Origin: Agrobacterium sp. 719_389
GTDB lineage: Bacteria; Bacteroidota; Bacteroidia; UBA8524
Assembly: GCA_943370295.1 (NCBI GenBank)
Contig: CALRQL020000015.1
Coordinates: 8,515 to 72,514 of the forward strand
DNA length: 64,000 nucleotides
Direction of reading: 5' to 3'
In this document: piece after piece, positions 32,701 to 64,000 of the stretch
How the letters are laid out: each line of letters starts with the position of its first letter
Numbering within the stretch: position 1 is the first letter of the stretch
Position numbers and translations under genes: made by a program
Notes under the pieces: generated by a model
Database searches by the model: none
The model's input: the letters and a program-made list of their open reading frames with translations, nothing else
What the model was told of the DNA's origin: nothing

Positions 32701-33303
32701 ATGTTGAAAATAGGGATAACCGGTGGTATAGGCAGTGGCAAAAGCACTGTGTGCAAAATATTTGAACAATTGGGAATACCGGTATATAGTGCTGATTTGG
32801 AAGCCCGTGAGTTGATGAATACGGATAAAATGTTGGTAGCAGCCCTTAAAAAAGAGTTTGGTGCTGATATTTATGATGCAAAAGGCGAATTGATACGGCC
32901 AAAACTGGCAGCATTAGTGTTTGGCGATAAAACAAAAGTTGAGAAACTTAATGCGTTAGTGCATCCTGCGGTTAAAGAACATTTTAAGCAATGGGCTGAT
33001 GGCCAAACCAATTGCCCGTATGTGATAAAAGAAGCAGCATTGATGTTTGAGAGCGAAAGCTACAAAGGCTTGGATTATGTGATTACCGTTACAGCACCCA
33101 AAGAAGTAAGATTAAAAAGAGTAATTGAGCGTGACGGAGCAAAGCGTGCCGATGTGTTGAAACGAATGAACAATCAACTTAGTGAAAAGGAGAGGGTGGA
33201 ACGTGCAGATTTTGTCATTAAAAATGATGGGAAGCACCCGTTGATTCCTCAGGTGATGCACTTTCACCAAATGTTTTTAGAGGCAGGACAGCCCTTGGTT
33301 TAG
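32701..33303 (+). CDS. coaE: Dephospho-CoA kinase
   Basis: IGITGGIGSGKSTV P-loop. 200 aa. Confidence 0.92.
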   Translation: MLKIGITGGIGSGKSTVCKIFEQLGIPVYSADLEARELMNTDKMLVAALKKEFGADIYDAKGELIRPKLAALVFGDKTKVEKLNALVHPAVKEHFKQWADGQTNCPYVIKEAALMFESESYKGLDYVITVTAPKEVRLKRVIERDGAKRADVLKRMNNQLSEKERVERADFVIKNDGKHPLIPQVMHFHQMFLEAGQPLV

Positions 33304-33412
33304 TAATATTAATCATTTTTATAAATTGAAAGTTACAGGGTTTGTACTAATATAAACTCAGATTTTTATGCTTTCGCAAGTATTTGCAGAAATGAATTGC
33401 TGAAGAACTAGT

Positions 33413-34651
33413 TTAGCTTATCTTATACTTTTCGTCAAAGAAATTTAATACATCAAAGCTTTTTTGTGGTTCAGGGAATTTAGTTTTTGGTATACTAATA
33501 GAGTTTATAATAAGCCCTTGTTCTTCTTCGGTTAGCGAATCCCAAAACTTAGGTGATAAATAAAAATTCTGAACGTTTTCAATAATAAGTTTTGATATTT
33601 CAGCTTCAAAGGCTTCATTACTAATAGCTTTCAAGTTGTTTAAGTTTTTAAAAATTAAATCACTTCCTTTATCTGATTTAAACCTTCCAAGAATTATAAG
33701 ACTATTGTTGTTTTCATTTGGCAGAACAGTAATCATTATTGGAAATCCAAAATATATATTTTCATTGTTTGGAACTATATGCCCATTTCCAAAAGGAATA
33801 TGCAACATCATGGTTGAAGAGCAAACAATTGGACTTAAATAATCAGTTTCATAAGTCAAATATTCAAGTTGATCATATGAATTGCTTTTTAAATTAACTA
33901 TAAATAGCTCTCTATATTTTTCAGAGTTTGAAACCAAAAGCTCTTGACCCTCTTTTTGCTCACTTGTAGGTTTTGGAATTTCAAAATTAACTCCTTCGGT
34001 TCCTGAAACATTGGAAGCAGAATTTATAGTGCTTTTTAGAGAAAGAAGCTGTGAAGTTGGATTATTTGATGTCGATAATAGAAAATCTCTCTTTGATTTT
34101 TTTGAATGGTAAGTATAGGCGTAAGACCTCAACGAACTTAAAAAGCATCTCTCTTTTTCAGAAGAGAATGTGTTGTTATCAATTGGGTTAAAAATTTTAT
34201 CGTGATGAGAACAAAAACCAACAAATGTTGAAGCTTTAGAAATGCTGATAAGTTTGGGTTTAAGAATTCTCGATGATATCCTTTCTATATAATAGACTTG
34301 TTCATTCTTTGAAATATAACTAGAGATCTTTAAAAGCCCACTCTTTTTTGACAAACTATGTGCCTTGATGATGTCATCACTTTTGCATTCCGAGTCATTT
34401 ATGAAACAAGATTTTGATTGTTCCTCAAAATCCTTTTTGAGTGAGTCTTTAGCTATTTCTAATAGACAATTGAATTCTTTCTCAGAATAATTTTTGTTAG
34501 GTCTAATTACATTTTCAAAATAGTCTTCAAGTTTTTTATATCGAGAGTTAGGATTTCTGTCAATATTATTAACATCCTCGGAATTTTTTGGTATAGATTG
34601 AAGCAGTTTGATAATATCCTTTAATTGCTTCTCAATTGAATTTTCACTCAT
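33413..34651 (-). CDS. Orphan hypothetical protein in an AT-rich patch (Cys/His clusters; function unknown)
   Basis: 412-aa uninterrupted ORF in DNA of about 25-30% GC (hand counts). Motifs are CFINDSEC-x9-H and FVGFCSHHDKIF. No family recognised. Confidence 0.7.
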   Translation of the reverse strand: MSENSIEKQLKDIIKLLQSIPKNSEDVNNIDRNPNSRYKKLEDYFENVIRPNKNYSEKEFNCLLEIAKDSLKKDFEEQSKSCFINDSECKSDDIIKAHSLSKKSGLLKISSYISKNEQVYYIERISSRILKPKLISISKASTFVGFCSHHDKIFNPIDNNTFSSEKERCFLSSLRSYAYTYHSKKSKRDFLLSTSNNPTSQLLSLKSTINSASNVSGTEGVNFEIPKPTSEQKEGQELLVSNSEKYRELFIVNLKSNSYDQLEYLTYETDYLSPIVCSSTMMLHIPFGNGHIVPNNENIYFGFPIMITVLPNENNNSLIILGRFKSDKGSDLIFKNLNNLKAISNEAFEAEISKLIIENVQNFYLSPKFWDSLTEEEQGLIINSISIPKTKFPEPQKSFDVLNFFDEKYKIS

Positions 34652-34657
34652 AATAGA

Positions 34658-34700
34658 ACATAAGCCACTAAGATACAATATTGTTTTTAGTGGCTTATGT
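34658..34700 (-). terminator. Perfect 14-bp stem hairpin between dapD and the orphan gene
   Basis: acataagccactaa-N15-ttagtggcttatgt lies 35 nt downstream of the dapD stop and 7 nt upstream of the orphan ATG. There is no clear U-tract, so a terminator role is tentative. Confidence 0.45.
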
Positions 34701-34734
34701 CAAATGCTAAATGTAAAATGTTCAATGACCAATA

Positions 34735-35550
34735 TTACACAGCCACACTATGCTCGCGTAGAGCGTCGTTCAAGCTGGTTTTAAGGTCGGTGCTTGGTTT
34801 GCGGCGACCGATAATCAACGCGCAAGGCACTTGGTATTCGCCCGCAGGGAACGTTTTTGTATAGCTTCCGGGTATTACCACACTTCTTTCAGGTACTACC
34901 CCTTTAGTTTCAATAGGTGTTGGCCCTGTTACATCAATAATTTTGGTACTTTGTGTTAAAACAACACCGGCACCCAATACTGCTTCACGCTCTACACGTA
35001 CCCCTTCAACCACAATACAGCGTGAACCTATAAAACAGTTATCCTCAATAATTACAGGGGCGGCTTGTACGGGCTCTAATACCCCGCCAATGCCTACACC
35101 TCCGCTAAGGTGTACATTTTTACCTATTTGCGCACAGCTACCTACAGTAGCCCAAGTATCCACCATCGTTCCTTCGTCTACATATGCACCAATGTTTACA
35201 TAACCGGGCATCATAATCACTCCTTTGGCAAGGTAGGCACCGTAGCGCGCAATAGCGTGAGGCACCACACGAACGCCTAATTGGGCATAACCGGTTTTTA
35301 GTTTCATTTTATCATGAAATTCCATCGGACCCACTTCAATAGTTTCCATTTGGCGGATAGGGAAGTACATAATCACGGCTTTTTTTACCCAATCGTTCAC
35401 TTGCCAGCCGTTATCAGTGGGTTGTGCTACCCGTAAACGACCTTTGTCCAACTCTTCAATTATCGTGTTTATAGCCTCTTGCGTCGCAGAGTCTTTTAGT
35501 AACTCGCGGTTTTCCCAAGCACTCTCAATTATTGTTTGCAGGTTTTGCAT
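34735..35550 (-). CDS. dapD: 2,3,4,5-tetrahydropyridine-2,6-dicarboxylate N-succinyltransferase
   Basis: MQNLQTIIESAWENRELL N-terminus and hexapeptide-repeat core (GAYVDEGTMVDTWATVGSCAQIGKNVHLSGGVGIGGVLEP). Confidence 0.9.
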   Translation of the reverse strand: MQNLQTIIESAWENRELLKDSATQEAINTIIEELDKGRLRVAQPTDNGWQVNDWVKKAVIMYFPIRQMETIEVGPMEFHDKMKLKTGYAQLGVRVVPHAIARYGAYLAKGVIMMPGYVNIGAYVDEGTMVDTWATVGSCAQIGKNVHLSGGVGIGGVLEPVQAAPVIIEDNCFIGSRCIVVEGVRVEREAVLGAGVVLTQSTKIIDVTGPTPIETKGVVPERSVVIPGSYTKTFPAGEYQVPCALIIGRRKPSTDLKTSLNDALREHSVAV

Positions 35551-38965: not shown

Positions 38966-39193
38966 ATGAAAAAAATTGAATTTTACGATGTGGGTAATCC
39001 GATTATTCAAAAGGATATTGATGATTTTGAAGCCAAGTTTAACATAAGACTTCCTCAAAACTATAAGAAACTGCTATTGAGGTTTAACGGGGGTATTCCT
39101 TCAGAAGATTGTATTTATATTGACATCAATAATGTTCCAATTGTTAGAAAAGAAATAGACATTAATACAATACTAAATTCGCAAGTAAAATAG
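38966..39193 (+). pseudogene. SMI1/KNR4 (SUKH-1) immunity-family protein, N-terminal fragment only
   Basis: FEAKFNIRLPQNYKKLLLRFNGG is the characteristic SMI1/KNR4 N-terminal motif. The ORF stops after 75 aa, whereas family members are usually about 130-180 aa. The next ORF begins 1 nt after the stop. Confidence 0.55.
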
Positions 39194-39194
39194 T

Positions 39195-39467
39195 ATGATA
39201 ACCAAAGAAGTTGCTAGAAAACTGGCAGAAGAGTATTTGAAACAAAACTCTCGTGATTTCACATTTATCGATTCCAATGATAAAATTTATTTTGAAGAAA
39301 CCCATGTTATTCCTTTTGGAGCAAAACTTGGTGAAGTTCACAGCACTTATAGTATTGGCTTTGGTGAGGTTTGGGGTGATGAAGTTAAAGTGTCATTCGT
39401 CATGTTAGATGCAAAAGATGGTGCGATACTATATTTAATTACACCTCAAAAATTTGTTAACCCTTAA
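39195..39467 (+). CDS. Small YrhB/PepSY-like immunity-type protein
   Basis: MITKEVARKLAEEYLKQ N-terminal helix, then beta-rich ...VSFVMLDAKDGAILYL. 90 aa, AT-rich. Confidence 0.55.
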   Translation: MITKEVARKLAEEYLKQNSRDFTFIDSNDKIYFEETHVIPFGAKLGEVHSTYSIGFGEVWGDEVKVSFVMLDAKDGAILYLITPQKFVNP

Positions 39468-39567
39468 TTTTTTTGCAGTATATAATTGAAAATATAATAT
39501 AGTTTTGATATTGAAAAACACCCTAAAGTTTTAGAGAAATTGAAATTAATCAATTATTATATTGATT

Positions 39568-39912
39568 ATGATAACACCAAAACAAGCATTGGAGATTGCT
39601 AAAAATTATTTAAAAGAGAAAAAGAGGAGTTTTACATCAATAAAATGGGGAATGGGTGCGCGAGCGGTGGGGGTTAGAATTGATGTAAATAATGTTTTGT
39701 ACGGCATTTTTGAAAACAACGAAGTTTGGTATGATCAGGATAAAGAAAACAGAAGGTATATCTTTTTCGCAGAATCGGGACAATACACTTTTGTTTTTAA
39801 TAAAACGGAAATGAATTTTGAGTTACTGGATCGTTATAGTGGGGATGTAGTTGAAGTTTTTGATTCATTTAACAAAATGCTAGAACGTATATTAAAGCTA
39901 ATGCTTACTTAA
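39568..39912 (+). CDS. Small YrhB/PepSY-like immunity-type protein
   Basis: The MITPKQALEIAKNYLKEKK N-terminus parallels the preceding ORF. ATG at 39568. Confidence 0.55.
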   Translation: MITPKQALEIAKNYLKEKKRSFTSIKWGMGARAVGVRIDVNNVLYGIFENNEVWYDQDKENRRYIFFAESGQYTFVFNKTEMNFELLDRYSGDVVEVFDSFNKMLERILKLMLT

Positions 39913-39929
39913 CGTATTTCTATAGTTTA

Positions 39930-39974
39930 CCTACTATTCGGGGATTTTTTTTTGTTTGCAGTACATTGCTGATA
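39930..39974 (+). repeat. Cassette junction repeat, copy J1 (core only)
   Basis: cctactattcggggattttttttt-gtttgcagtacattgctgat recurs at 40445-40491 and 41113-41157, and partly at 41785-41806. Confidence 0.85.
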
Positions 39975-39988
39975 AATGAAATTTACTC

Positions 39989-40300
39989 ATGAAACATAAA
40001 GAAGAAGAGATTGTAAGCATTGCAAAAAACGTTTTAAGGAAACTTGAAATTTCATATGACAATTCTTTTGGTATGAATATAAATGTAGTGGATAAAAAAG
40101 ACAATAGATTTTCTAAACCTACTTGGGTTGTAGCTTATCAGATTGCGATACAATTTACCCCTAGGCGACTTGCTTTTTTGTATATTGATGATGAAACAGG
40201 GGCACCCTTGTTAATATTTCACAGTCATGCAAATGTGTATCTAACCCTTAATGAGGACGGAACAATAGAAAAAACGGTTAAACGCTATGGGGAGGATTAG
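39989..40300 (+). CDS. Small PepSY-like immunity-type protein
   Basis: EEIVSIAKNVLRKL helix...WVVAYQ...LYIDDETGAPLL pattern. 103 aa. Confidence 0.55.
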   Translation: MKHKEEEIVSIAKNVLRKLEISYDNSFGMNINVVDKKDNRFSKPTWVVAYQIAIQFTPRRLAFLYIDDETGAPLLIFHSHANVYLTLNEDGTIEKTVKRYGED

Positions 40301-40426
40301 CTCTATATGGGCATGGGAAACGGCCACAATAGTATAATTAAAAGGCATTGACGACAGCAGCTTGAAGGAACAAAAGTATTACCCATACGACACTGTGCAT
40401 TGGTAGTACTATACTGAGTATATTTT

Positions 40427-41092
40427 ATACAATCCCTGAGTTGTTTCCCTACTATTCGGGGATTTTTTTTTGTTTGCAGTACATTGCTGATGAAAATCTA
40501 TTCGAGTGTTAAAAAGATTTAGGGTGCACAAATAGAATAAGATACCATGTCACAAACATTCACAATATTATCAAAGGAATATATTCAACAAAAAGAGCTA
40601 CACACTATACTCAGGGATATTGCCCAAAAAATACCAACAGTAAGCATTCAAAAAGAAATAATTTATAAAGGAAATTTTGAGTTTACCATACAAAGGGTGG
40701 AAAAATCGTTACCTAAAGTATATGGTGAGCATGAAATTGCAGTTATTACATTTATGCTTTTGTCTGAAGAAGAATTTTATAAAAGTGAAGAAAGTATTAA
40801 TCAATTTATGGTTAGCATGAGTGAGGAACTTCGAAAATCATATAGGAGTTTAATTATTATCAACACGGATCATGCTTCTTTATTATGGAATGATTTTTTA
40901 AATATTTTTATGGAAAAATATCCTGATATGGTACTAACTGGTGATTCATTTGATGATTCAGGAGAATTAGGGTATTATACTTATGAACACTTAAAAGCGG
41001 GTCGTAAACTTGATGAGCGTGCTTGGTTCTGGGAAAACCCTGATGAGTTGCTGCGTCGTAGCAATGCTATTGTATAGATACAAGCAACCTTT
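40427..41092 (+). repeat. Tandem duplication unit 1 (junction J2 plus 176-aa ORF)
   Basis: 666-bp period. The junction, leader and ORF ends are near-identical to unit 2. Confidence 0.9.
40547..41077 (+). CDS. Hypothetical protein, paralogue A of tandem pair
   Basis: 176 aa, about 80-85% identical by eye to the ORF at 41213-41746. Confidence 0.7.
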   Translation: MSQTFTILSKEYIQQKELHTILRDIAQKIPTVSIQKEIIYKGNFEFTIQRVEKSLPKVYGEHEIAVITFMLLSEEEFYKSEESINQFMVSMSEELRKSYRSLIIINTDHASLLWNDFLNIFMEKYPDMVLTGDSFDDSGELGYYTYEHLKAGRKLDERAWFWENPDELLRRSNAIV

Positions 41093-41758
41093 CAATACAA
41101 TCCCCGAAAGGTTTCCCTACTATTCAGGGATTTTTTTTGTTTGCAGTACATTGCTGATGACAATCTATTCGAGTGTTAAAAAGATTTAGGGCCACTAATA
41201 GAATAAGATACCATGTCACAAACATTCACAATATTATCAAAGGAATATATTCCACAAAAAGAGCTACACACTATACTAAAGGATATTGCCAGTATGATTC
41301 CATCCGTAAACATTCAAGAGGAGAGAATTAATAGTGATGGGTTTTTAGTGTTTACTATTCAACGGGTAGAAAAATCCTTACCTAAAGTATATGGAGAATA
41401 TGAAATTGCGGTTATCAAATTTATGCTTGAAACGGAAGAAGGGTTTCATAAAAGTGAAGAAAGTATTAATCAATTTATGGTTAGCATGAGTGAGGAACTT
41501 CGACAAGCTTACAGGGATTTAATCATTATTAATACGGATCATGCTTCCTTATTATGGTATGATTTTTTAAATATTTTTATGGAAAAATATCCTGATCTAA
41601 TACTGGAGAGCGGTATAGAGGATGATTCAGGAGAATTAGGGTATTATACTTATGAACACTTAAAAGCGGGTCGTAAACTTGATGAGAGTGCTTGGTTCTG
41701 GGAAAACCCTGATGAGTTGCTGCGTCGTAGCAATGCTATTATATAGATACAAGCAACC
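41093..41758 (+). repeat. Tandem duplication unit 2 (junction J3 plus 177-aa ORF)
   Basis: See unit 1. It is followed by a partial third junction, J4, at 41759-41806. Confidence 0.9.
41213..41746 (+). CDS. Hypothetical protein, paralogue B of tandem pair
   Basis: 177 aa with the same N- and C-termini as paralogue A (MSQTFTILSKEYI... / ...WFWENPDELLRRSNAI). Confidence 0.7.
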   Translation: MSQTFTILSKEYIPQKELHTILKDIASMIPSVNIQEERINSDGFLVFTIQRVEKSLPKVYGEYEIAVIKFMLETEEGFHKSEESINQFMVSMSEELRQAYRDLIIINTDHASLLWYDFLNIFMEKYPDLILESGIEDDSGELGYYTYEHLKAGRKLDESAWFWENPDELLRRSNAII

Positions 41759-45987: not shown

Positions 45988-46470
45988 ATGATAAACGATA
46001 CCCCTTTGTGGAAACGGCTAATGGCTCATGACCTTGATAATCCCGGCGCAAAATTTCCTTTTAGTGCACGGCTGGCAAGGGAAAACGGTTGGGAGTTGCC
46101 CTTTGCACTTGATGCCATACACGAGTATAAAAAATTTATGTTTTTGCTGTGTGTAAGTGATAAACCCCTTACGCCAAGCGATGAAATTGACCAGGTATGG
46201 CACCTGCACCTGCTATACACCCGTGAGTATTGGGAGATTTTTTGCCCGCAAGTGTTGCAAAAAACCATACACCATACCCCTACCGAAGGCGGTGCTGCCG
46301 AAGGTGAAAAGTTTACCGACTGGTACGAACAAACGTTTATCGAGTATGAGAAGTATTTTGGCAAAAAGCCGCCTGAACACCTATGGCCGCCTGCAAAAAT
46401 TCGCTTTAAACAAATTAATTTTACACGAGTAAACAGAAATAGGTTTTGGCTATTGAAAAAACCTAAATAA
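45988..46470 (+). CDS. DUF1399-like (glycine-rich-domain-containing-protein-like) protein
   Basis: FSARLARENGW...EYKKFMFL...PSDEIDQVWHLHLLYTREYW matches the remembered DUF1399 core (D-x-V-W-H-x-H-x-L-x-T-x-x-Y). Confidence 0.6.
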   Translation: MINDTPLWKRLMAHDLDNPGAKFPFSARLARENGWELPFALDAIHEYKKFMFLLCVSDKPLTPSDEIDQVWHLHLLYTREYWEIFCPQVLQKTIHHTPTEGGAAEGEKFTDWYEQTFIEYEKYFGKKPPEHLWPPAKIRFKQINFTRVNRNRFWLLKKPK

Positions 46471-46478
46471 TTGTAAAC

Positions 46479-47225
46479 ATGGAGTTACTGAAAACCCTTA
46501 CCCCTGCAGAAACCTATTTTTTAGTCCACAAGGCCGAAATGAGCCAAAAACAGTTTTTGCGCTTCACCTTGATGGATTTGATATTGAAGGGTGTACTTAA
46601 TATAGTTGAGATTGAAAAAGACAATGTAAACTACACCTACGTGCAGGCCGGTGCTAATTTTAACACATACACGCACCAACCTTACGAAGAAAGCTTTTTG
46701 CGGGCCTGTAAGTTTGATGAAGGGTATCAAACATCTTTCAAAAACTATATTACTATCATTATGCCCCTTACCAAACGGTATAAACGCCAAATAGCTCAAA
46801 CGCCACACATGGGGGGCTTTTTTTACCGCACATGGCTGCAACGCAACTTAACAGGCGGCTATAGCTATACAAACGTTGGTGCACAAACGGCCACTATACT
46901 AAGTGATTTGCTAAAAAAAGCGAATGAAGAATATCGCATTGAAGGGAAGGATGCGGAAACGAAAAAACTCTTAGGCAATAACATCATACTACTTAATGAT
47001 TTTAATAGTAATGATTTAAAGGTGTTTGACGAGGAGATGAAACGTAAAGAAACAGTAAGCACTATAACCGGCGGCGATACGGGTATTGGATGGTGGTATT
47101 TTGACAGCGGGGTGAATAACGGTTTTGATGCTGATTATGGCAGTGTTTCTGATTCGTCGGGAGATTCAGGTGGGGATGGTGATTCAGGATGCAGTGGTTG
47201 CGGAGGTTGTGGGGGTGGTGATTAA
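46479..47225 (+). CDS. TIGR04222-like protein with Gly/Ser/Cys-rich C-terminal tail
   Basis: N-terminal LTPAETYFLV...LMDLILKGVL resembles the TIGR04222 start. It ends SGDSGGDGDSGCSGCGGCGGGD. Confidence 0.55.
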   Translation: MELLKTLTPAETYFLVHKAEMSQKQFLRFTLMDLILKGVLNIVEIEKDNVNYTYVQAGANFNTYTHQPYEESFLRACKFDEGYQTSFKNYITIIMPLTKRYKRQIAQTPHMGGFFYRTWLQRNLTGGYSYTNVGAQTATILSDLLKKANEEYRIEGKDAETKKLLGNNIILLNDFNSNDLKVFDEEMKRKETVSTITGGDTGIGWWYFDSGVNNGFDADYGSVSDSSGDSGGDGDSGCSGCGGCGGGD

Positions 47226-47231
47226 CCGTTG

Positions 47232-48056
47232 TTAATTACCCGAAGGTTTTGTTGGAGTGGTTTTTACCGATGGACACAGGTATAGTTTCACATCGTCGAT
47301 AAAATAGTATGCTAAGTGACTAACGCCTGTACTTTCCTCATCATACTCAATAGCCACGTCGTCATCAGTTATTACTGGTGTTCCTTCAGGCGTTAAAGCG
47401 GGCTTTTCCTTCATCTCCTCAATAATAGTTTCGGCATGATTGAAGAAATTACCCAGCGTAAGGTACCTGTACGCCGAATCGGCCAGAAACCCTAACTCAA
47501 TACGCATCCACTGGGTAGTATTTTTCACCACTTGCGATACATTTACCTGCGGTTTCTTAAAAATAGGCGTGCAACTGGTGTTTTCAGGACTTCCGGTAGT
47601 AAACAACGCACCTATATTATTGGTTGCATACAAACTGTTTGCTCCTAACGCCACATAAAACTCTAAACAATACATATTACCGGGGGTTAATGGCTGCGTA
47701 AGCTCCACACTCAGGTATTCGTGCCACTCATTAGGCTGGCAGCCCCCATCGGGCGAGTAATTAATAAACCCTACCATCACACTGCCCGAATGCGGTATCA
47801 TAAATCCCTCACCTGTATTAGGCGTGCGTGCCCAGCAATCGCTATCTGCGTAATTGCTCATCACATCAGTAGTAGTGGCTATGGGTGTAAACCAATCGTA
47901 TAGGTAATCGTTAATGTTTCCATCGTCAACCAACCAACTGCATGGAAACTCCTTAATTGTATTGGTCTCAAAATCACCGTTTGGCACTAAGTTCACCTGC
48001 GCCCTATTTAATTGGGGTGTTAGAATAAAAACAGCAAGTAATACACGGATTATCAA
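47232..48056 (-). CDS. Hypothetical secreted protein (jelly-roll/CBM-like)
   Basis: Signal-like N-terminus, then the NLVPNGDFE motif common at the start of beta-sandwich domains. TTG start. Confidence 0.6.
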   Translation of the reverse strand: MIIRVLLAVFILTPQLNRAQVNLVPNGDFETNTIKEFPCSWLVDDGNINDYLYDWFTPIATTTDVMSNYADSDCWARTPNTGEGFMIPHSGSVMVGFINYSPDGGCQPNEWHEYLSVELTQPLTPGNMYCLEFYVALGANSLYATNNIGALFTTGSPENTSCTPIFKKPQVNVSQVVKNTTQWMRIELGFLADSAYRYLTLGNFFNHAETIIEEMKEKPALTPEGTPVITDDDVAIEYDEESTGVSHLAYYFIDDVKLYLCPSVKTTPTKPSGN

Positions 48057-48202
48057 AAGAATTTCTTTTATGGTATAACGTAATTACTGTCCCCTGTTAT
48101 TGTTAACAGTACAGGATATTTTATTTATACCCACCTAATTAACTACCTACAAGTTACAATTTTTATCCAAACAATCAAAGGAGGCTTATTTCATACAACA
48201 CC

Positions 48203-48332
48203 CCATCCTGTCTTTCTGAGCGATAGCGAAGAACCTTATAACAATTCTGTTAACAGAGCGGGATAAGATGCTTCCTTCGTCAGCATGACAGTGGGAAGTG
48301 CGCCAGCCATCCTGAGCCTGCCGAAGGGTGCG
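48203..48332. repeat. Composite REP-like block, tandem copy 1 (~130 bp)
   Basis: ccatcctgtctttctgagcgatagcgaagaacc...gataagatgcttccttcgtcagcat...ccatcctgagcctgccgaagggtgcg is repeated at 48408-48537 with a handful of mismatches. Confidence 0.9.
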
Positions 48333-48407
48333 CGTGCCATAGCCATCCACAACTCTTTAGGGTATAGATTCCCGCCTGCGCGGGAATGACGGAAAGCAAT
48401 CAGCACC

Positions 48408-48537
48408 CATCCTGTCTTTCAGAGCGATAGCGAAGAACCTTATAACAATTGTGTTAACAGAGCGGGATAAGATGCTTCCTTCGTCAGCATTACAGTGGGA
48501 AGTGCGCCAGCCATCCTGAGCCTGCAGAAGGGTGCGG
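48408..48537. repeat. Composite REP-like block, tandem copy 2
   Basis: See copy 1. A different element (cccgcctgcgcgggaatgacgg) sits between the copies. Confidence 0.9.
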
Positions 48538-48584
48538 CTGGAGTATGGCGGAAATGAATAAAATTTACGAAGCGTGAACTATGC

Positions 48585-48607
48585 GATGCTGAAACACGTT
48601 CAGCATC
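48585..48607 (-). terminator. Perfect 9-bp hairpin immediately downstream of alaS (REP-like element, possible terminator)
   Basis: gatgctgaa-acacg-ttcagcatc lies 9 nt after the alaS stop. No U-tract. Confidence 0.4.
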
Positions 48608-48615
48608 ACAATAGA

Positions 48616-51531
48616 TTAAGCAGTTGCTGTGCTTGCGTGGTTTTTGGCTGCATCAAGTACTGCGCCTAAGCCGCTTACATCGCTGCCGCCTGCGGTAGCG
48701 TAGAAAGGCTGTCCGCCGCCGCCGCCTTTTACCAGTTTGGCAAGTTCACGGATTATTTTACCGGCATCAAACCCTTTATCTTTTACCAAATTATCGCTAA
48801 TCATCACGGTAATATTGGGTTTACCGCCAATTTCAGCAGTAAGTACCAAAAACAGGTTGTCTATCTCACCGCGAAGGGCAAACGCAAGGTTTTTAATAGC
48901 CTCTGCGCTGCCGATACTAACGCGTTGGGCTATGAAGTTAAGGCCGTTTACGGCTTCAACTTTTTGCTTCAATTCGGCTTTTACCTGTTGTACTTGGGCA
49001 TTTTCAAGAGCCTCTAAACGTTTTTGCAACTCGGCTTTTTCGTTCAGCAGCGTTTCGATTCCTTTTTTAAGGTCTTTGGCATTGTTCAACAAGGCTTTGG
49101 CTTCTTCTACCAAAGTAACTTGTTGGTTAATAAACTCCTCGGCTTTATCGGCAGTAATGGCCTCTATACGACGTACTCCCGCAGCCACCGAAGTTTCAGC
49201 AGTAATTTTAAAGTACCCTATTTGTCCTGTGGCAGGTACGTGGGTACCACCGCACAACTCCATGCTGTAGTTTTTATCAAAGGTGATAACACGCACGGTA
49301 TCGCCGTATTTTTCGCCAAACAAAGCAGTAGCACCTTGCGCTTGTGCCTCAGCAATGGGGATATTGCGTTGCTCGTTCAATGCAATGTTTTCACGGATTT
49401 TTTGGTTCACCATACGTTCTACGGCAGCCACTTCCTCATCGGCCATTTTCGTAAAATGGGAGAAGTCAAAACGCAAGTAATCAGGGCCTACCAAGCTACC
49501 TTTTTGGTTCACATGGTCGCCCAAAACACGTTTTAATGCCGCATGCAATAAATGCGTAGCACTGTGATTATCAGCTATTAAAACGCGACGATCTGCATCT
49601 ACTTTTGCCTCAAACACCGCTTCGGGGTTTTCGGGCAAACGGTCGGTAATGTGTATGATTAAATTGTTTTCTTTTTGAGTATCAACGATGTTTATTTTCT
49701 CGTTGGCACTTTGCAGGTAACCGGTATCGCCTACCTGCCCGCCGCTTTCAGCGTAGAAGGGAGTTTTATCCAACACTAACTGGAAAAACTCTTTGTTTTT
49801 GGCCGATACCTTGCGGTAACGCAATATGCGCGATTCAGCAGTAAGGGTATCGTAACCAACAAATTCTGTCCCATCGTCCTTCGACAAGCTTCGGACAGTA
49901 ACCCAATCGTCTTTGGTAGTTTCAGCAGCTTTACGAGAACGGTCTTTTTGTTGTTGAAGCAGTTTATTAAAGCCATCGATATCAACCTCTCCATTAAGCT
50001 CTTTAGCAATTACCTGAGTCAGGTCTATTGGGAACCCAAATGTATCATATAATAGAAATGCAAATGGGGCATCGATTGATACATTAAAAATATTTTCAGT
50101 AATACCCTCAAAAATTTTGAGTTTTGTTAAGTTCTTGTGCTCTATTTCTGATATCCATAGTTCAACTACTTTAAAATCTTCATTCCCTATTGGTGTATAT
50201 ACCAGTTCTTTATCAGAAAGAATATCAAACGCTAGTTTTTCAGCTTCAAAATAAAAGCTAAAAATATGTTTGTTAATCTCGTAATTTAACTTGTACTCTA
50301 TACCTTTTGAATCAAAAAACTCAAATAAGTTGCTAATCAGGCTACCTGTTACTTGAAGCTTTAATTGCTCTAACCCTTTTTCCAAAGTCCTCAAAAAACT
50401 GATTTCTTCTTCCAATACCACCTTCTGCACAAAATCCTGTTGTTGGCGTATTTCAGGGAAAGTAGCTCCAAATTCCTGTGTCAATATTGGCACCAACTCG
50501 TTAAAAAAGGGTTTGTTTAGGCCTAAAAAGCTATACCCATAACGCACGGCACGGCGCAAAATGCGGCGGATTACATAACCTGCGCCGCCGCTGCTCGGTA
50601 GTTGACCGTCGGCAATGGTAAAAGCCACAGCACGTATATGGTCAACAATTACACGGATGGCAATATCAGTTTTGGGGCTTCCGCCGGGTATGGCAGCAGG
50701 GTCGCCGCCTACATATTTTATTCCGCTAAGTGCTTCTACCTTGTTTATCAAGGGCATAAACACGGTGCTGTCGTAGTTACTGGTTTTGCCTTCAATAGCG
50801 CGTACCAAACGCTCAAAGCCCATCCCTGTATCTACGTGTTTATCGGGCAGTGGTTGCAGGCTGCTATCGGCCATGCGGTTGTACTGCATAAACACGTTGT
50901 TCCAAATTTCAATCACCTGCGGGTGGTCGTTATTCACTAATGTTTTACCGTCAACGGCTTGGCGTTCACTATCGGGGCGCAAATCAACATGTATCTCGCT
51001 ACAAGGACCGCAAGGACCTGTATCGCCCATTTCCCAAAAGTTATCTTTTTTATTACCGTGTAAAATACGGTCTTCGGCAATGTATTTCTTCCAACAATCG
51101 TAAGCCTCTTGGTCAAACGCAAGGTTTTCTTTCGCATCACCTTCAAACACGGTTACATACAAGCGGTCTTTGTCCAGTTTGTACACTTCGGTAAGTAGTT
51201 CCCACGCCCACGCAATGGCCTCTTCTTTAAAATAATCACCAAAACTCCAGTTGCCCAGCATTTCAAACATGGTGTGGTGGTAAGTATCGTGACCCACATC
51301 CTCCAAGTCGTTGTGTTTACCGCTCACGCGCAAGCATTTTTGAGTATCGGCCACCCGTTTGTTAGGGGCTTGTTGATTGCCCAAAAAGTAATCTTTAAAC
51401 TGGTTCATCCCCGCGTTGGTAAACATCAGGGTAGGGTCGTTTTTAATTACAAGAGGTGCCGATGGGACAATTTTGTGTCCTTTGCTTTCAAAAAAATCTA
51501 AAAACTGCTGCCTAATTTGTTGCGCGTTCAT
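48616..51531 (-). CDS. alaS: Alanine--tRNA ligase carrying an in-frame insertion
   Basis: FTNAGMNQFK, WSFGDYFK, editing-domain HSATHLLH...CGGTHV and C-terminal GGGGGQPFYATAGG. 971 aa, against about 870-880 aa for typical AlaRS. Confidence 0.95.
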   Translation of the reverse strand: MNAQQIRQQFLDFFESKGHKIVPSAPLVIKNDPTLMFTNAGMNQFKDYFLGNQQAPNKRVADTQKCLRVSGKHNDLEDVGHDTYHHTMFEMLGNWSFGDYFKEEAIAWAWELLTEVYKLDKDRLYVTVFEGDAKENLAFDQEAYDCWKKYIAEDRILHGNKKDNFWEMGDTGPCGPCSEIHVDLRPDSERQAVDGKTLVNNDHPQVIEIWNNVFMQYNRMADSSLQPLPDKHVDTGMGFERLVRAIEGKTSNYDSTVFMPLINKVEALSGIKYVGGDPAAIPGGSPKTDIAIRVIVDHIRAVAFTIADGQLPSSGGAGYVIRRILRRAVRYGYSFLGLNKPFFNELVPILTQEFGATFPEIRQQQDFVQKVVLEEEISFLRTLEKGLEQLKLQVTGSLISNLFEFFDSKGIEYKLNYEINKHIFSFYFEAEKLAFDILSDKELVYTPIGNEDFKVVELWISEIEHKNLTKLKIFEGITENIFNVSIDAPFAFLLYDTFGFPIDLTQVIAKELNGEVDIDGFNKLLQQQKDRSRKAAETTKDDWVTVRSLSKDDGTEFVGYDTLTAESRILRYRKVSAKNKEFFQLVLDKTPFYAESGGQVGDTGYLQSANEKINIVDTQKENNLIIHITDRLPENPEAVFEAKVDADRRVLIADNHSATHLLHAALKRVLGDHVNQKGSLVGPDYLRFDFSHFTKMADEEVAAVERMVNQKIRENIALNEQRNIPIAEAQAQGATALFGEKYGDTVRVITFDKNYSMELCGGTHVPATGQIGYFKITAETSVAAGVRRIEAITADKAEEFINQQVTLVEEAKALLNNAKDLKKGIETLLNEKAELQKRLEALENAQVQQVKAELKQKVEAVNGLNFIAQRVSIGSAEAIKNLAFALRGEIDNLFLVLTAEIGGKPNITVMISDNLVKDKGFDAGKIIRELAKLVKGGGGGQPFYATAGGSDVSGLGAVLDAAKNHASTATA
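50064..50345 (-). other. AT-rich in-frame insertion block within alaS
   Basis: About 28% GC by hand count over 50041-50340, against about 40-47% in the flanking alaS sequence. It encodes LISNLFEFFDSKGIEYKLNYEINKHIF...TENIFNVSIDAP between the conserved TLEKGLEQL and FAFLLYDTFGFPIDLT motifs. Confidence 0.75.
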
Positions 51532-62470: not shown

Positions 62471-64000
62471 TTACTGTTTTATGAATTTAGTCGTATTAAA
62501 TCCTATTGAAGGATTATGTAAAGTTAAAAAATATAATCCGTTTGGCAATATACTGATGGGCAGTGTATTTGTTTCAAAAGTGTTTATAACCCCTGTGTTA
62601 ATAGTTTTTCCTGCTATATCCGTAATAGTATAGGTGTATATATCTTGTTGTGCAATATCTATTGTGATTACAGTTGAGGCAGGATTAGGATACACGTTTA
62701 TTACATTATATTTTTTTACTGTAATTGGTTTTATACCTACCAAAGTTGTGTCTTTAATAAAGTTTTTACCCACGTGCGGGCGCATCATCAATGTGCCGGG
62801 TATTTCTGATAAATACCATTTTCCAGTGGTATTAAAATATAAACCGGGATTGCCTATTGCCTTGCGATAACTGGTGTAATTCCTATCCCAGCCTACGTTT
62901 AAGTGGAAGGTAGATGTTTGCACCCAGCCAATGTAAAACTCTCCTTTTACTGCAATGGCACTATCCAAAACATACGTATGATATCCGTTAATAGAATCGG
63001 TATAGGTAGGATAGGTCACTAATTTAGTGTACAACAGTTCTTCTTGTGAGCCATTTGGAGTGATACTTTGCCATACAGCAAGGTTAAAGGCTCTCTTAAT
63101 AGTATCCTCTGCCTGAAAATAATATACCGAAATTGCCCGCAAACTATCGGGTTTATTAAGCCTGAAACGGTAGGCAATTTTGCCTGAACCTCGTTTTAGC
63201 CCGTAACCTGTTTCAGCAGTACCATCGTCGTAGGCATAATAATTGGCAAACGTAAATTTACGGGTAACAGAATCATTGGCAATTCTAAAGTTGGCTCCTG
63301 TAATTTTTAAAAATTCAGCAGCAGTAAATGTTACTGTATCCTCAGTGCGGGCAACAGCATTGTAATTTGAAGCGAAACCAAAGCCTTTTTCGCTAAACGG
63401 GTCGATTGAAAAACCGCTACCGGGCTGGTTAACTACCAAATTACCTGCATCGTCACGTACTTGTCGGTTAAAAACATCAACCGTGCGGCCTTGGTCAAAT
63501 AAATTACTTAAATACCCTCTTGTACTGTCGGTAATCTCCAGTGATTCAAAAGTTTTGAATTGGTCGTAGGGCATTTCTTGATATTCGCTTAAAAACGACA
63601 TGGGTTTTTGCGAAACCGCAACATCAGCAAAAACACTGTCTGCTGCCGTGCGGTTGCGTTCCATATAAATGTAATCAAGGTGCCATTGGCCTACTCCGCC
63701 TATGTAGCTTTGATAATTGATAAAACGGAATTGGAAACCTGCATGGAAATACTCGGGAGCTTCAAGTTTTAAAATAGCGGGTTTGAAATTACTTAACGCA
63801 ATACCTGGGGTAGACCATACGGTGTACCAAAACCCTAAGTTGTTTTTAAATTGTAGAATTAAAGAGTCTTTGCCTTGTAATGGTTGAAAACTCAAGCCTT
63901 GTGCTTGATAAAAAAAGCTCAGGTAAATATTGTTGCCGCTGCTATACGCAGAAATATCAATGGGTTGTGAAGTAAGAGTGTCGCAAGGGCCGTGTATATC
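62471..64000 (-). CDS. Secreted protein with T9SS type-A C-terminal domain; 5' end beyond window edge
   Basis: The frame stays open from 63895 to base 64000 (hand translation ...DIHGPCDTLTSQPIDISAYSSGNNIYLSFFYQAQG-LSFQ...). C-terminal VYPNPASTVITI...GLYFLTL...KFIKQ. Confidence 0.8.
   Translation of the reverse strand, partial: DIHGPCDTLTSQPIDISAYSSGNNIYLSFFYQAQGLSFQPLQGKDSLILQFKNNLGFWYTVWSTPGIALSNFKPAILKLEAPEYFHAGFQFRFINYQSYIGGVGQWHLDYIYMERNRTAADSVFADVAVSQKPMSFLSEYQEMPYDQFKTFESLEITDSTRGYLSNLFDQGRTVDVFNRQVRDDAGNLVVNQPGSGFSIDPFSEKGFGFASNYNAVARTEDTVTFTAAEFLKITGANFRIANDSVTRKFTFANYYAYDDGTAETGYGLKRGSGKIAYRFRLNKPDSLRAISVYYFQAEDTIKRAFNLAVWQSITPNGSQEELLYTKLVTYPTYTDSINGYHTYVLDSAIAVKGEFYIGWVQTSTFHLNVGWDRNYTSYRKAIGNPGLYFNTTGKWYLSEIPGTLMMRPHVGKNFIKDTTLVGIKPITVKKYNVINVYPNPASTVITIDIAQQDIYTYTITDIAGKTINTGVINTFETNTLPISILPNGLYFLTLHNPSIGFNTTKFIKQ

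What the first reader, a model, noticed from the sequence alone, without database searches (positions are those of the whole stretch)
50064..50345. In-frame, stop-free, AT-rich insertion of about 80-100 codons inside the essential alaS gene
AlaRS here is 971 aa, against about 870-880 aa for typical bacterial enzymes. The excess maps to one block. 99 residues separate the conserved ...FLRTLEKGLEQL helix from the conserved FAFLLYDTFGFPIDLT motif, whereas I recall roughly 15-20 residues at this position in E. coli-type AlaRS. The DNA of the block is about 28% GC (hand count over 50041-50340), against about 40-47% immediately outside. That matches the composition of the two other AT-rich patches in this window. 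The block stays in frame with no stop codon. Its peptide (LISNLFEFFDSKGIEYKLNYEINKHIFSFYFEAEKLAFDILSDKELVYTPIGNEDFKVVELWISEIEHKNLTKLKIFEGITENIFNVS) has an alternating beta/alpha pattern that loosely recalls small Vsr/DUF559-type endonuclease-like folds, but I see no catalytic motif. Two readings are possible: recent in-frame capture of foreign or selfish DNA in an essential gene (comparable in principle to in-frame Rickettsia palindromic elements), or a lineage-specific inserted domain.
Basis: partly seen in the sequence, partly recalled or inferred. Interest (0 to 1): 0.65.

Follow-up and report, generated by a model that had tools for sequence, protein, structure and literature searches.

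The report
Swappable AT-rich insert in alanyl-tRNA synthetase
The essential alanyl-tRNA synthetase gene carries a real, translated block of about 90 extra codons in one surface loop, and near-identical genes in related uncultured Bacteroidota carry unrelated blocks or none at that spot, apparently exchanged by recombination between gene copies and not inserted by a jumping element.

Summary
alaS (48616-51531, minus strand, 971 aa) has one contiguous extra block, aa 392-485 (window 50077-50358). Its GC is 28% against 45% for the rest of the gene. It has no stop in frame, against 3-17 stops in the other five frames. It lies 10 residues upstream of the Tyr-Asp-x-x-Gly motif that reads the G3:U70 pair of tRNA-Ala.

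- **Orphan sequence.** It has no Pfam, PHROG, PDB or Rfam match, no other copy in the window, no terminal repeats, and no relative in the metagenome or viral collections.
- **Hypervariable loop.** Among the 120 closest AlaRS sequences this loop alone varies in length, by 0 to about 100 extra residues. There are at least 14 mutually unrelated insert families, and every one checked is AT-rich.
- **Mosaic tract.** Genes whose cores are 95-98% identical in DNA to this one (dS 0.10-0.26) carry different inserts. Synonymous divergence is saturated in the 54 and 79 codons on either side of the insert (Fisher p about 1e-51). This marks a mosaic tract of about 715 nt (49822-50536).

Best reading: the insert arrived by homologous recombination with a diverged alaS allele, in a loop that tolerates insertions. 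It is not an RPE-like element, an intein or an ancient conserved domain. Its fold and function are unknown. Diversifying selection or a homing-type process is not excluded.

The parts
48616..51531 (-). alaS coding sequence, 971 aa including the insert
   Evidence: ORF; Pfam tRNA-synt_2c, tRNA_SAD, DHHA1; PDB AlaRS matches.
50077..50358 (-). Core of the AT-rich in-frame insert: aa 392-485, 282 nt, GC 28%, an orphan peptide
   Evidence: Boundaries from the alignment to human AlaRS. Composition. Stop-free frame. No homologue found.
50059..50382 (-). Full variable block (aa 384-491) that differs between alleles. It runs from just after FLRTL to just before F-x-L-YDT, so helix residues next to the insert change together with the insert type.
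   Evidence: Codon-level comparison of nine alaS genes; loop extraction from 120 AlaRS.
49822..50536 (-). Mosaic (recombinant) tract, CDS nt 996-1710 (aa 332-570). It holds the insert plus diverged left and right alaS flanks.
   Evidence: about 60 of the 72 differences private to the window gene fall here; identity profile; dS is saturated in the flanks against 0.10-0.16 in the cores (versus P0002), Fisher p 2.5e-51.
50371..50397 (-). Conserved helix FLRTLEKGL (aa 379-387) on the N-terminal side of the insert
   Evidence: F379, T382 and G386 are invariant.
50035..50049 (-). [quoted passage not shown]
   Evidence: query 492 aligns with A. fulgidus 446, so D496 = Asp450, and query 486 aligns with 5knn 403, so D496 = human Asp416. 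PMC6055181 gives the roles of Asp400, Tyr399 and Gly403 in E. coli. D496 and G499 are invariant.

Best explanation
The block is a translated, strain-specific insertion in a surface loop of the tRNA-recognition (helical) subdomain of AlaRS. It lies between the helix ending FLRTLEKGL and the YDTFGFP motif whose Asp reads G3:U70.

Shown: the loop tolerates insertions, and in this group of uncultured Bacteroidota it is hypervariable. Alleles with no insert, or with unrelated inserts of 15-100 residues, occur in otherwise nearly identical alaS genes.

Inferred from divergence patterns: the allele in this window was acquired, or is retained, as a tract of about 715 nt from a diverged and unsampled alaS lineage, by homologous recombination using the conserved alaS sequence on both sides. 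The insert is not a mobile element in its own right.

Inferred: its AT-rich, FYMINK-rich make-up reflects weaker constraint on this segment under an AT-biased mutation pressure, because all loops checked at this site share that make-up.

Inferred from a partly confident model: in the protein, the first 17 or so insert residues continue the preceding long helix, and the last 12 or so form a returning helix. This would hold a poorly predicted middle part of about 60 residues away from the body of the enzyme.

Inferred by analogy: two other insert families at the same site are under purifying selection, so the segment is probably tolerated or mildly modulatory, not junk.
For: - **One block in one loop.**
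- **Translated frame.** The alaS frame has 0 stops against 3-17 in the other frames, and 0 of 20000 shuffles were stop-free. GC1 > GC3 > GC2 (0.40, 0.23, 0.20), a coding-like pattern.
- **Hypervariability.** Of 119 AlaRS scored, 61 have the basal spacing, 29 an intermediate one and 29 a long one. Fourteen insert families compared by hhalign show at most 4.3% probability of relationship. The same families recur in different core clades, and different families occur within one clade.
- **Mosaic tract.** DNA identity of the window gene to P0002, P0003 and P0004 is 95-98% in both cores (P0009: 97% in the 3' core, 88% in the 5' core, which holds a second divergent tract). It is 81% in the left flank and 68-71% in the right flank. 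About 60 of 72 private differences lie in CDS nt 996-1710. Against P0002, dS is 0.10 and 0.16 in the cores and saturated in the flanks, Fisher p 2.5e-51.
- **Incongruent ancestry.** The right flank of the window gene is closest to P0006, P0011 and P0016, not to its core relatives.
- **No element features.** No terminal repeats or target duplication, no second copy in the window, no Rfam family and fold z-score -1.47, and no Pfam, PHROG or PDB match.
- **AT-richness is general at this site**.
- **Purifying selection on other families.** For families B and C, pN is 0.13-0.14 against pS 0.6-0.8.
- **Other phyla use the same loop.** Phycisphaerae AlaRS have a conserved insert of roughly 60-70 residues in the same loop, with GC close to that of the host gene.
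- **Structure.** Helix 365-408 runs into the insert with pLDDT about 85. Helix 470-481 returns. Residues 418-472 have pLDDT 35-47.
Against: - The donor allele has not been found, so the window insert is a singleton. Neither its age nor the selection acting on it can be measured directly.
- GC3 of 23% is lower than in families B and C (33-35%). This leaves room for a truly AT-rich foreign origin of the insert in the donor lineage.
- The window comes from a metagenome-assembled contig. A double assembly switch between two co-occurring relatives could mimic a mosaic tract, although independent assemblies show the same kind of mosaic.
- No fold or function could be assigned. Both structure predictions are poor over the insert.
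- The two insert-only word-index searches did not even return the parent proteins, so they carry little weight as negative evidence.
Confidence: 0.65

Rival explanations
1. Diversifying or frequency-dependent selection keeps many alternative cassettes at this loop. Something antagonistic, such as a phage factor or a toxin, would bind AlaRS near its tRNA acceptor-stem reading surface, and recombination would shuffle old alleles among species.
For: Insert families B and C are as old as the split between the core clades (dS above 1), and both occur in both clades next to alleles with no insert. The right flank is deeply diverged between all alleles (64-85% nt), while the cores of the closest set (window gene, P0002, P0003, P0004) are 94-98% identical. 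The site lies 10 residues from the G3:U70-reading Asp.
Against: No antagonist is known or seen nearby. The same pattern could arise neutrally in a tolerant loop where non-homology blocks homogenisation. dN/dS within families is low (about 0.1), not raised. There is no evidence that alleles coexist within a single population.
Confidence: 0.15
2. The inserts are footprints of an unknown homing-type selfish element, such as a degenerate in-frame endonuclease or an intein remnant. It would repeatedly invade this conserved alaS site and convert the flanking sequence along with itself.
For: The site is recurrent and precise, lies in a highly conserved essential gene, and has a patchy distribution that includes empty sites. 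Diverged flanks next to the insert resemble co-conversion tracts. By eye, the P0021 insert has a D...E-x-K-like pattern.
Against: The inserts are 15-100 aa, below the size of known inteins and of most homing endonucleases. There is no Cys/Ser/Thr ... His-Asn + Cys/Ser/Thr junction. No Pfam, PHROG or PDB nuclease or Hint match was found for any of 10 inserts. Insert families are mutually unrelated. Families B and C have dS as old as the cores, so there is no sign of recent transfer.
Confidence: 0.07
3. An RPE- or MITE-like repeated element, or a random piece of AT-rich foreign DNA, was inserted in frame at this site in this genome.
For: The block is in frame and stop-free, its GC is far below that of the host gene, and it has no homologue.
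Against: The best inverted repeat has 18-nt arms at 72% complementarity, and there is no target-site duplication. No second copy exists in 64 kb by blastn or tblastn. The fold z-score is -1.47. The block is embedded in diverged alaS flanks, which an in-situ insertion would not produce. All loops checked at this site are AT-rich.
Confidence: 0.05
4. An ancient inserted domain conserved across a lineage.
For: Such a case exists in Phycisphaerae at the same loop, with GC close to that of the host gene.
Against: None of the 119 other closest AlaRS sequences carries this block. Relatives with 95% identical cores carry unrelated blocks or none.
Confidence: 0.03
5. The mosaic is an artefact: a metagenome assembly switched between two co-occurring relatives inside alaS.
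For: The window derives from a metagenome-assembled contig (P0001 is known from a single 88,895-bp NCBI contig).
Against: This needs two switches within 715 nt. The same kind of mosaic is seen in independent assemblies from different samples (P0002, P0003, P0004, P0008, P0009). Even if the mosaic were an artefact, the insert-bearing allele would still exist in nature.
Confidence: 0.03

Closest known systems
Lineage-specific (idiosyncratic) insertions in aminoacyl-tRNA synthetases and other housekeeping enzymes, for example the conserved Phycisphaerae AlaRS insert at this same loop
   Same: A single contiguous in-frame block in a surface loop between invariant motifs. It is translated as part of the enzyme, and the core enzyme is unchanged.
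   Different: This block is not conserved within a lineage. Near-identical genes carry unrelated inserts or none. All inserts checked are AT-rich, and the window insert is a singleton with no homologue.
Mosaic genes produced by homologous recombination between diverged alleles (established knowledge, for example the mosaic penicillin-binding protein genes of Streptococcus and Neisseria)
   Same: Sharp breakpoints; a tract with saturated synonymous divergence inside a gene that is otherwise nearly identical; different phylogenetic affinities for different segments.
   Different: The exchanged tract carries a large length polymorphism in an essential aaRS. No selective agent such as an antibiotic is known.
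Rickettsia palindromic elements and other in-frame MITEs (PMC10969869)
   Same: Extra peptide segments inserted in frame into housekeeping proteins, apparently compatible with the protein's fold.
   Different: RPEs are repeated element families of about 150 bp, with many copies in unrelated genes. Here there is no second copy, no palindrome and no family, and the site is the same while the sequences differ.
Inteins and homing endonuclease genes with co-conversion of flanks (established knowledge)
   Same: A recurrent precise site in a conserved essential gene, a patchy distribution with empty sites, and diverged flanks next to the insert.
   Different: No splicing junction residues, no Hint or nuclease domain, size well below a mini-intein, unrelated sequences at the one site, and the segment is apparently retained in the protein.

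Membership tests
RPE / in-frame MITE | Member of a repeated family with several copies in the genome | tested here: not met
   blastn (word size 7) and tblastn of the block against the 64-kb window find only itself. No relative was found in JGI metagenomes or IMG/VR. The rest of the genome could not be searched.
RPE / in-frame MITE | Palindromic structure or terminal inverted repeats, with a target-site duplication | tested here: not met
   The best inverted pair has 18-nt arms at 72% complementarity and is not at the block's ends. Direct repeats are at most 19 nt and internal. The RNA fold z-score is -1.47.
RPE / in-frame MITE | In-frame, stop-free insertion in a protein-coding gene | tested here: met
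   Zero stops in the alaS frame against 3-17 in the other frames.
Intein | Cys/Ser/Thr as first residue, and His-Asn at the end followed by Cys/Ser/Thr | tested here: not met
   The junctions read ...EQLK|LQVTGS... and ...ENIFNVS|IDAPF.... There is no His-Asn, and no consistent nucleophile across the insert families.
Intein | Hint splicing domain (Pfam match; at least about 130 residues, from established knowledge) | tested here: not met
   No Pfam match at E <= 1 for the 103-residue insert query. The inserts are 15-100 residues.
Self-splicing intron (group I or II) | Match to a ribozyme covariance model, or strong conserved RNA structure | tested here: not met
   No Rfam match at E <= 1 over 49700-50700. 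Fold z-score -1.47. An open in-frame reading is also not expected of an intron.
PD-(D/E)xK / Vsr / DUF559 endonuclease fold | Profile match, or a confident structural match with catalytic D...(D/E)xK | tested here: inconclusive
   No Pfam, PHROG or PDB sequence match. AlphaFold confidence over the insert is 35-47 with an alignment and 34.6 without one, so no fold comparison was meaningful.
Lineage-specific aaRS insertion domain | A single contiguous in-frame block in a loop between conserved motifs | tested here: met
Lineage-specific aaRS insertion domain | Conserved among the orthologues of a clade | tested here: not met
   The block is a singleton among the 120 closest AlaRS. Relatives with 95% identical cores carry other inserts or none.
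Lineage-specific aaRS insertion domain | Peptide under purifying selection, so translated and constrained | tested here: inconclusive
   This cannot be measured for the singleton. It is met for families B and C at the same site (pN 0.13-0.14 against pS 0.6-0.8).
Mosaic gene by homologous recombination | Abrupt local rise in divergence, including at synonymous sites, within an otherwise near-identical gene | tested here: met
   Differences are 27.6% inside the tract flanks against 2.9% outside, Fisher p 2.5e-51. dS is saturated inside against 0.10-0.16 outside.
Mosaic gene by homologous recombination | Different segments have different closest relatives | tested here: met
   The cores are closest to P0002 and P0004 (96-98% nt). 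The right flank is closest to P0006 (80% nt, against 68-71% for the core relatives). The left flank is equally distant from all.

The most novel reading that the evidence does not exclude
alaS in this clade of uncultured Bacteroidota contains a true hypervariable cassette next to the G3:U70-reading motif. Dozens of unrelated, protein-constrained inserts would be maintained and shuffled across species boundaries by one of two processes. The first is diversifying selection from an unknown antagonist that targets AlaRS or its tRNA interface. The second is an undescribed homing-type process that installs in-frame segments at a single conserved site.
Probability: 0.2. Interest if true: 0.8.

Novelty: new variant of a known kind. 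Interest (0 to 1): 0.5.

Why it matters
Essential translation enzymes are usually treated as slowly and vertically evolving. Here a 50-100-residue segment next to the residues that define tRNA-Ala identity differs completely between genes that are otherwise almost identical, and it is exchanged by recombination. If the variation is selected, it points to an unrecognised conflict centred on AlaRS. If it is neutral, it marks a very tolerant site in AlaRS that could be used for protein engineering. It also shows how orphan peptide segments can enter essential proteins. In practice, alaS is a risky phylogenetic marker in this group, and a drop in GC inside a gene need not mean a mobile element.

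Tried and rejected
- **Exhaustive HMMER search** of the insert against 1.84 billion representative proteins gave only two spurious hits to repeat proteins.
- **Word-index searches** with the insert alone and with the family B alignment returned nothing. They also failed to return the parent proteins, so I treat them as uninformative.
- **Phage and plasmid collections**, searched by DNA and by protein, gave no match.
- **JGI metagenomes and IMG/VR**, scanned with back-translated peptide patterns, gave no relative.
- **Pfam on 10 different inserts and PHROGs on 4** gave nothing significant. PDB sequence search of the window insert also gave nothing.
It did reveal the Phycisphaerae insert.
- **Cluster look-up** gave no taxon beyond 'Bacteroidota bacterium'.
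- **AlphaFold**, with and without an alignment, gave no usable model of the insert, so no fold search was run.
- **The promoter and terminator scan** of the region showed nothing above the shuffled expectation.
- **Literature searches** found no description of this alaS polymorphism.
- **Readings rejected:** intein, intron, RPE/MITE and ancient conserved domain. The membership tests give the reasons.
Full report
**1. The observation**

The minus-strand ORF 48616..51531 encodes a 971-aa protein with the full AlaRS domain set. In a sequence search of the PDB, residues 2-391 align with human AlaRS up to chain residue 414 of 4xem. The alignment resumes at query 486 against chain residue 426. So 94 residues here correspond to 11 in the human enzyme. 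The block aa 392-485 maps to window 50077-50358.

- **Composition.** Its GC is 0.280 (GC3 0.234), against 0.454 (GC3 0.451) for the rest of alaS and 0.414 for the window.
- **Local uniqueness.** Of 54 ORFs of at least 150 aa in the window, alaS is the only one with such an internal dip: 0.17 below its own mean, against at most 0.09 elsewhere.
- **Reading frame.** The alaS frame has no stop in the block. The other five frames have 3-17, and none of 20000 shuffles was stop-free.
- **Amino acids.** The peptide is rich in F, Y, M, I, N and K (44% against 28% in the rest of the protein) and poor in G, A, R and P (7% against 25%).

**2. Position in the enzyme**

The block lies between the conserved helix FLRTLEKGL (aa 379-387) and the motif L-Y-D-T-F-G-F-P. 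D496 aligns with Asp450 of A. fulgidus AlaRS and Asp416 of the human enzyme. According to PMC6055181, this Asp (Asp400 in E. coli), together with the neighbouring Tyr and Gly, contacts the minor-groove side of the G3:U70 identity pair, and D400A and D400N are nearly inactive. The insert therefore ends 10 residues before a key tRNA-identity motif. That motif is intact: D496 and G499 are invariant in 71 sequences.

**3. The block itself**

It matches nothing.

- Pfam, PHROGs and PDB sequences give no significant match.
- No Rfam family matches, and folding is no better than shuffled sequence (z = -1.47).
- There are no convincing terminal inverted or direct repeats.
- There is no second copy in the window, at DNA or peptide level.
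- There is no match in phage or plasmid records.
- No relative turned up in JGI metagenomes or IMG/VR.
- A full HMMER scan of 1.84 billion representative proteins gave only two spurious repeat-protein hits.

Two word-index searches with insert-only queries returned nothing. They also failed to recover the parent proteins, so I give them no weight.

AlphaFold with a 71-sequence alignment models the enzyme body well. Confidence is only 35-47 over residues 418-472. The preceding helix (365-408) is predicted to continue about 17 residues into the insert, and a returning helix is predicted at 470-481. Without an alignment the model is useless, at pLDDT 34.6. The fold of the middle 60 or so residues is unknown, and the suggested Vsr/DUF559 likeness remains untested in any meaningful way.

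**4. Relatives**

This is the main result.

- **Spacing.** Among the 120 closest AlaRS sequences, the spacing from FLRTL to the D of YDT.GFP ranges from 26 to 129 residues. It is at most 35 in 61 sequences, 36-60 in 29, and above 60 in 29.
- **One variable site.** After removal of the loop, the 25 closest proteins are all 849-857 aa, apart from some start-codon extensions. This is the only site in the protein that varies in length.
- **Unrelated inserts.** BLAST clustering of 33 long inserts gives 18 groups. Profile-profile comparison of 14 families gives at most 4.3% probability of relationship. The window insert is a singleton.
- **No match to the core tree.** On a tree of the core protein with the loop removed, the window enzyme is 95% identical to P0002, P0003, P0004 and P0007. 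Their loops are 96, 52, 27 and 50 residues of different sequence. P0006 (92%) has no insert. Conversely, the same insert families recur in different core clades. Family B is in P0002 and also in P0010 and P0011. Family C is in P0003, P0005 and P0007 and also in P0012 and P0016. Family F is in P0008 and P0025. Alleles with no insert occur in three clades.
- **AT-richness everywhere checked.** Every loop examined at DNA level is AT-rich compared with its gene (0.22-0.39 against 0.42-0.50), including the 9-residue loops with no insert.
- **Another phylum.** AlaRS of Phycisphaerae (Planctomycetota) have a conserved insert of roughly 60-70 residues in the same loop, with GC close to that of the host gene. 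The loop is therefore generally tolerant of insertions.

**5. How the block came to be in this gene**

I built a codon alignment of the window gene with eight relatives whose DNA I retrieved.

- **Identity profile.** The window gene is 95-100% identical in DNA to P0002, P0003 and P0004 over most of its length, and to P0009 except for a second divergent tract in that gene (aa 161-222). Identity falls to 64-83% from about aa 330 to aa 570. By region, identity to P0002, P0003 and P0004 is 0.95-0.98 in both cores (P0009: 0.88 in the 5' core, 0.97 in the 3' core), 0.81 in the left flank and 0.68-0.71 in the right flank.
- **Breakpoints.** About 60 of the 72 positions where the window gene alone differs from four agreeing relatives lie in CDS nt 996-1710, which is window 49822-50536.
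- **Synonymous divergence.** Against P0002, dS is 0.10 and 0.16 in the 5' and 3' cores, and saturated in the 54 codons left and 79 codons right of the insert. Differences are 27.6% inside the tract flanks and 2.9% outside (Fisher p 2.5e-51). Because the excess is largely synonymous, it reflects deeper ancestry and not adaptation around an insertion.
- **Incongruent affinities.** The right flank is closest to P0006, P0011 and P0016 instead of the core relatives. The left flank is about equally far from everything sampled.

So the insert sits inside a tract of about 715 nt from a diverged, unsampled alaS allele. Homologous recombination between alaS alleles explains this. Insertion of an element at this site in this genome does not.

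The other alleles show the same kind of mosaic. Right flanks are 64-85% identical between all pairs, although among P0002, P0003 and P0004 the cores are 94-97% identical. P0009 has a second divergent tract, and the P0008 tract extends further.

**6. Are such inserts junk?**

For the two families where I could compare two genes, the insert is clearly constrained as protein.

- Family B (P0002 against P0011): pN 0.14, pS 0.81.
- Family C (P0003 against P0016): pN 0.13, pS 0.60, dN/dS about 0.12.

Their synonymous divergence is as great as that of the cores of the same gene pairs. These families therefore predate the split of the two core clades and were not recently transferred between them. For the window's own insert no such test is possible. 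By analogy I infer that it is translated and tolerated, possibly with a modulatory role. The in-frame, stop-free state and the GC1 > GC3 > GC2 pattern agree with that.

**7. Interpretation**

The best-supported account has three parts.

- The loop before the G3:U70-reading motif tolerates large insertions.
- In this clade many alternative alleles exist and are exchanged by homologous recombination.
- The window gene carries one such allele, from an unsampled lineage.

AT-richness is a general property of this weakly constrained segment and is not a mark of foreign DNA. The very low GC3 (23%) does leave open an AT-rich ultimate source.

RPE/MITE, intein, intron and ancient-domain readings each fail defining tests (see the membership tests). 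Two more interesting readings are not excluded. One is long-term diversifying selection on this surface of AlaRS. The other is a homing-like process with co-conversion of flanks. Against the first, no antagonist is known and dN/dS within families is low. Against the second, no nuclease or splicing domain is detectable, and the families are mutually unrelated.

**8. Comparison with what is known, and novelty**

Lineage-specific insertions in aaRS loops and mosaic genes are both known kinds. The combination seen here has three features:

- extreme turnover of unrelated 15-100-residue inserts at one loop of an essential synthetase;
- that turnover occurs among genes with dS of about 0.1-0.26 elsewhere;
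- the loop lies next to an identity-reading motif.

My literature searches did not find this combination described. I rate it a new variant of a known kind, of moderate interest.

**9. Limits**

- The source genome beyond the window was not available.
- Taxonomy is no finer than uncultured Bacteroidota. A T9SS sorting domain in a neighbouring ORF fits that assignment.
- The donor allele is unsampled.
- The fold and function of the insert are unknown.
- The contig is metagenome-assembled, so the mosaic should be confirmed with spanning reads.

Noticed in passing
window 33300-34800: An AT-rich island (GC 0.27-0.32) made up almost entirely of one 421-aa ORF (33413-34678, minus strand, GC 0.293). 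It has no Pfam match and sits between genes of normal composition.
   Followed up: partly
window 39000-41750: A second AT-rich island (GC 0.29-0.34) with a run of small plus-strand ORFs, including 40547-41077 (176 aa) and 41213-41746 (177 aa). Those two have no Pfam match. It looks like an accessory or horizontally acquired segment.
   Followed up: partly
L012, L014, L016, L022, L031, L042, L060, L063 (AlaRS genes of Phycisphaerae and other Planctomycetota): These AlaRS are about 1010-1120 aa. Where the loop could be extracted, they carry a recognisably conserved insert of roughly 60-70 residues in the same loop as the window insert, with GC close to that of the host gene (0.50-0.70). This is a stable lineage-specific insertion at the same site.
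   Followed up: partly
L085 (P0009 alaS), codons aligned to window aa 161-222: A second divergent tract (62-82% nt identity, against about 90-97% elsewhere) lies in the catalytic domain of this relative. Mosaicism in alaS of this clade is therefore not limited to the insert region.
   Followed up: no
L088 (P0021 alaS insert, 108 aa): By eye, the insert ...FEHYVMRSLASSGH...RVDVFIQDLGVGIEIFRGNKK... resembles the E...D...E-x-K layout of small PD-(D/E)xK nucleases. Pfam and PHROGs give no match.
   Followed up: partly
L081 compared with window 45988-51531 and L085: The three small genes next to alaS (160, 248 and 274 aa) lie downstream of alaS in the window and in L085, but upstream of it in L081. 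This points to a local rearrangement around alaS between genomes whose alaS cores are 96-97% identical.
   Followed up: no
window 62471-63895 (minus strand): A 474-aa ORF with a C-terminal type IX secretion sorting domain (Por_Secre_tail, E 2e-10), which fits a Bacteroidota origin. Its 3' part is also rather AT-rich (lowest 210-nt GC 0.295).
   Followed up: no
tool behaviour: Searches of the 5.8-billion-protein word index with insert-only queries did not return even the proteins the queries were cut from. Negative results for such AT-coded, compositionally biased segments are therefore unreliable with that tool.
   Followed up: yes
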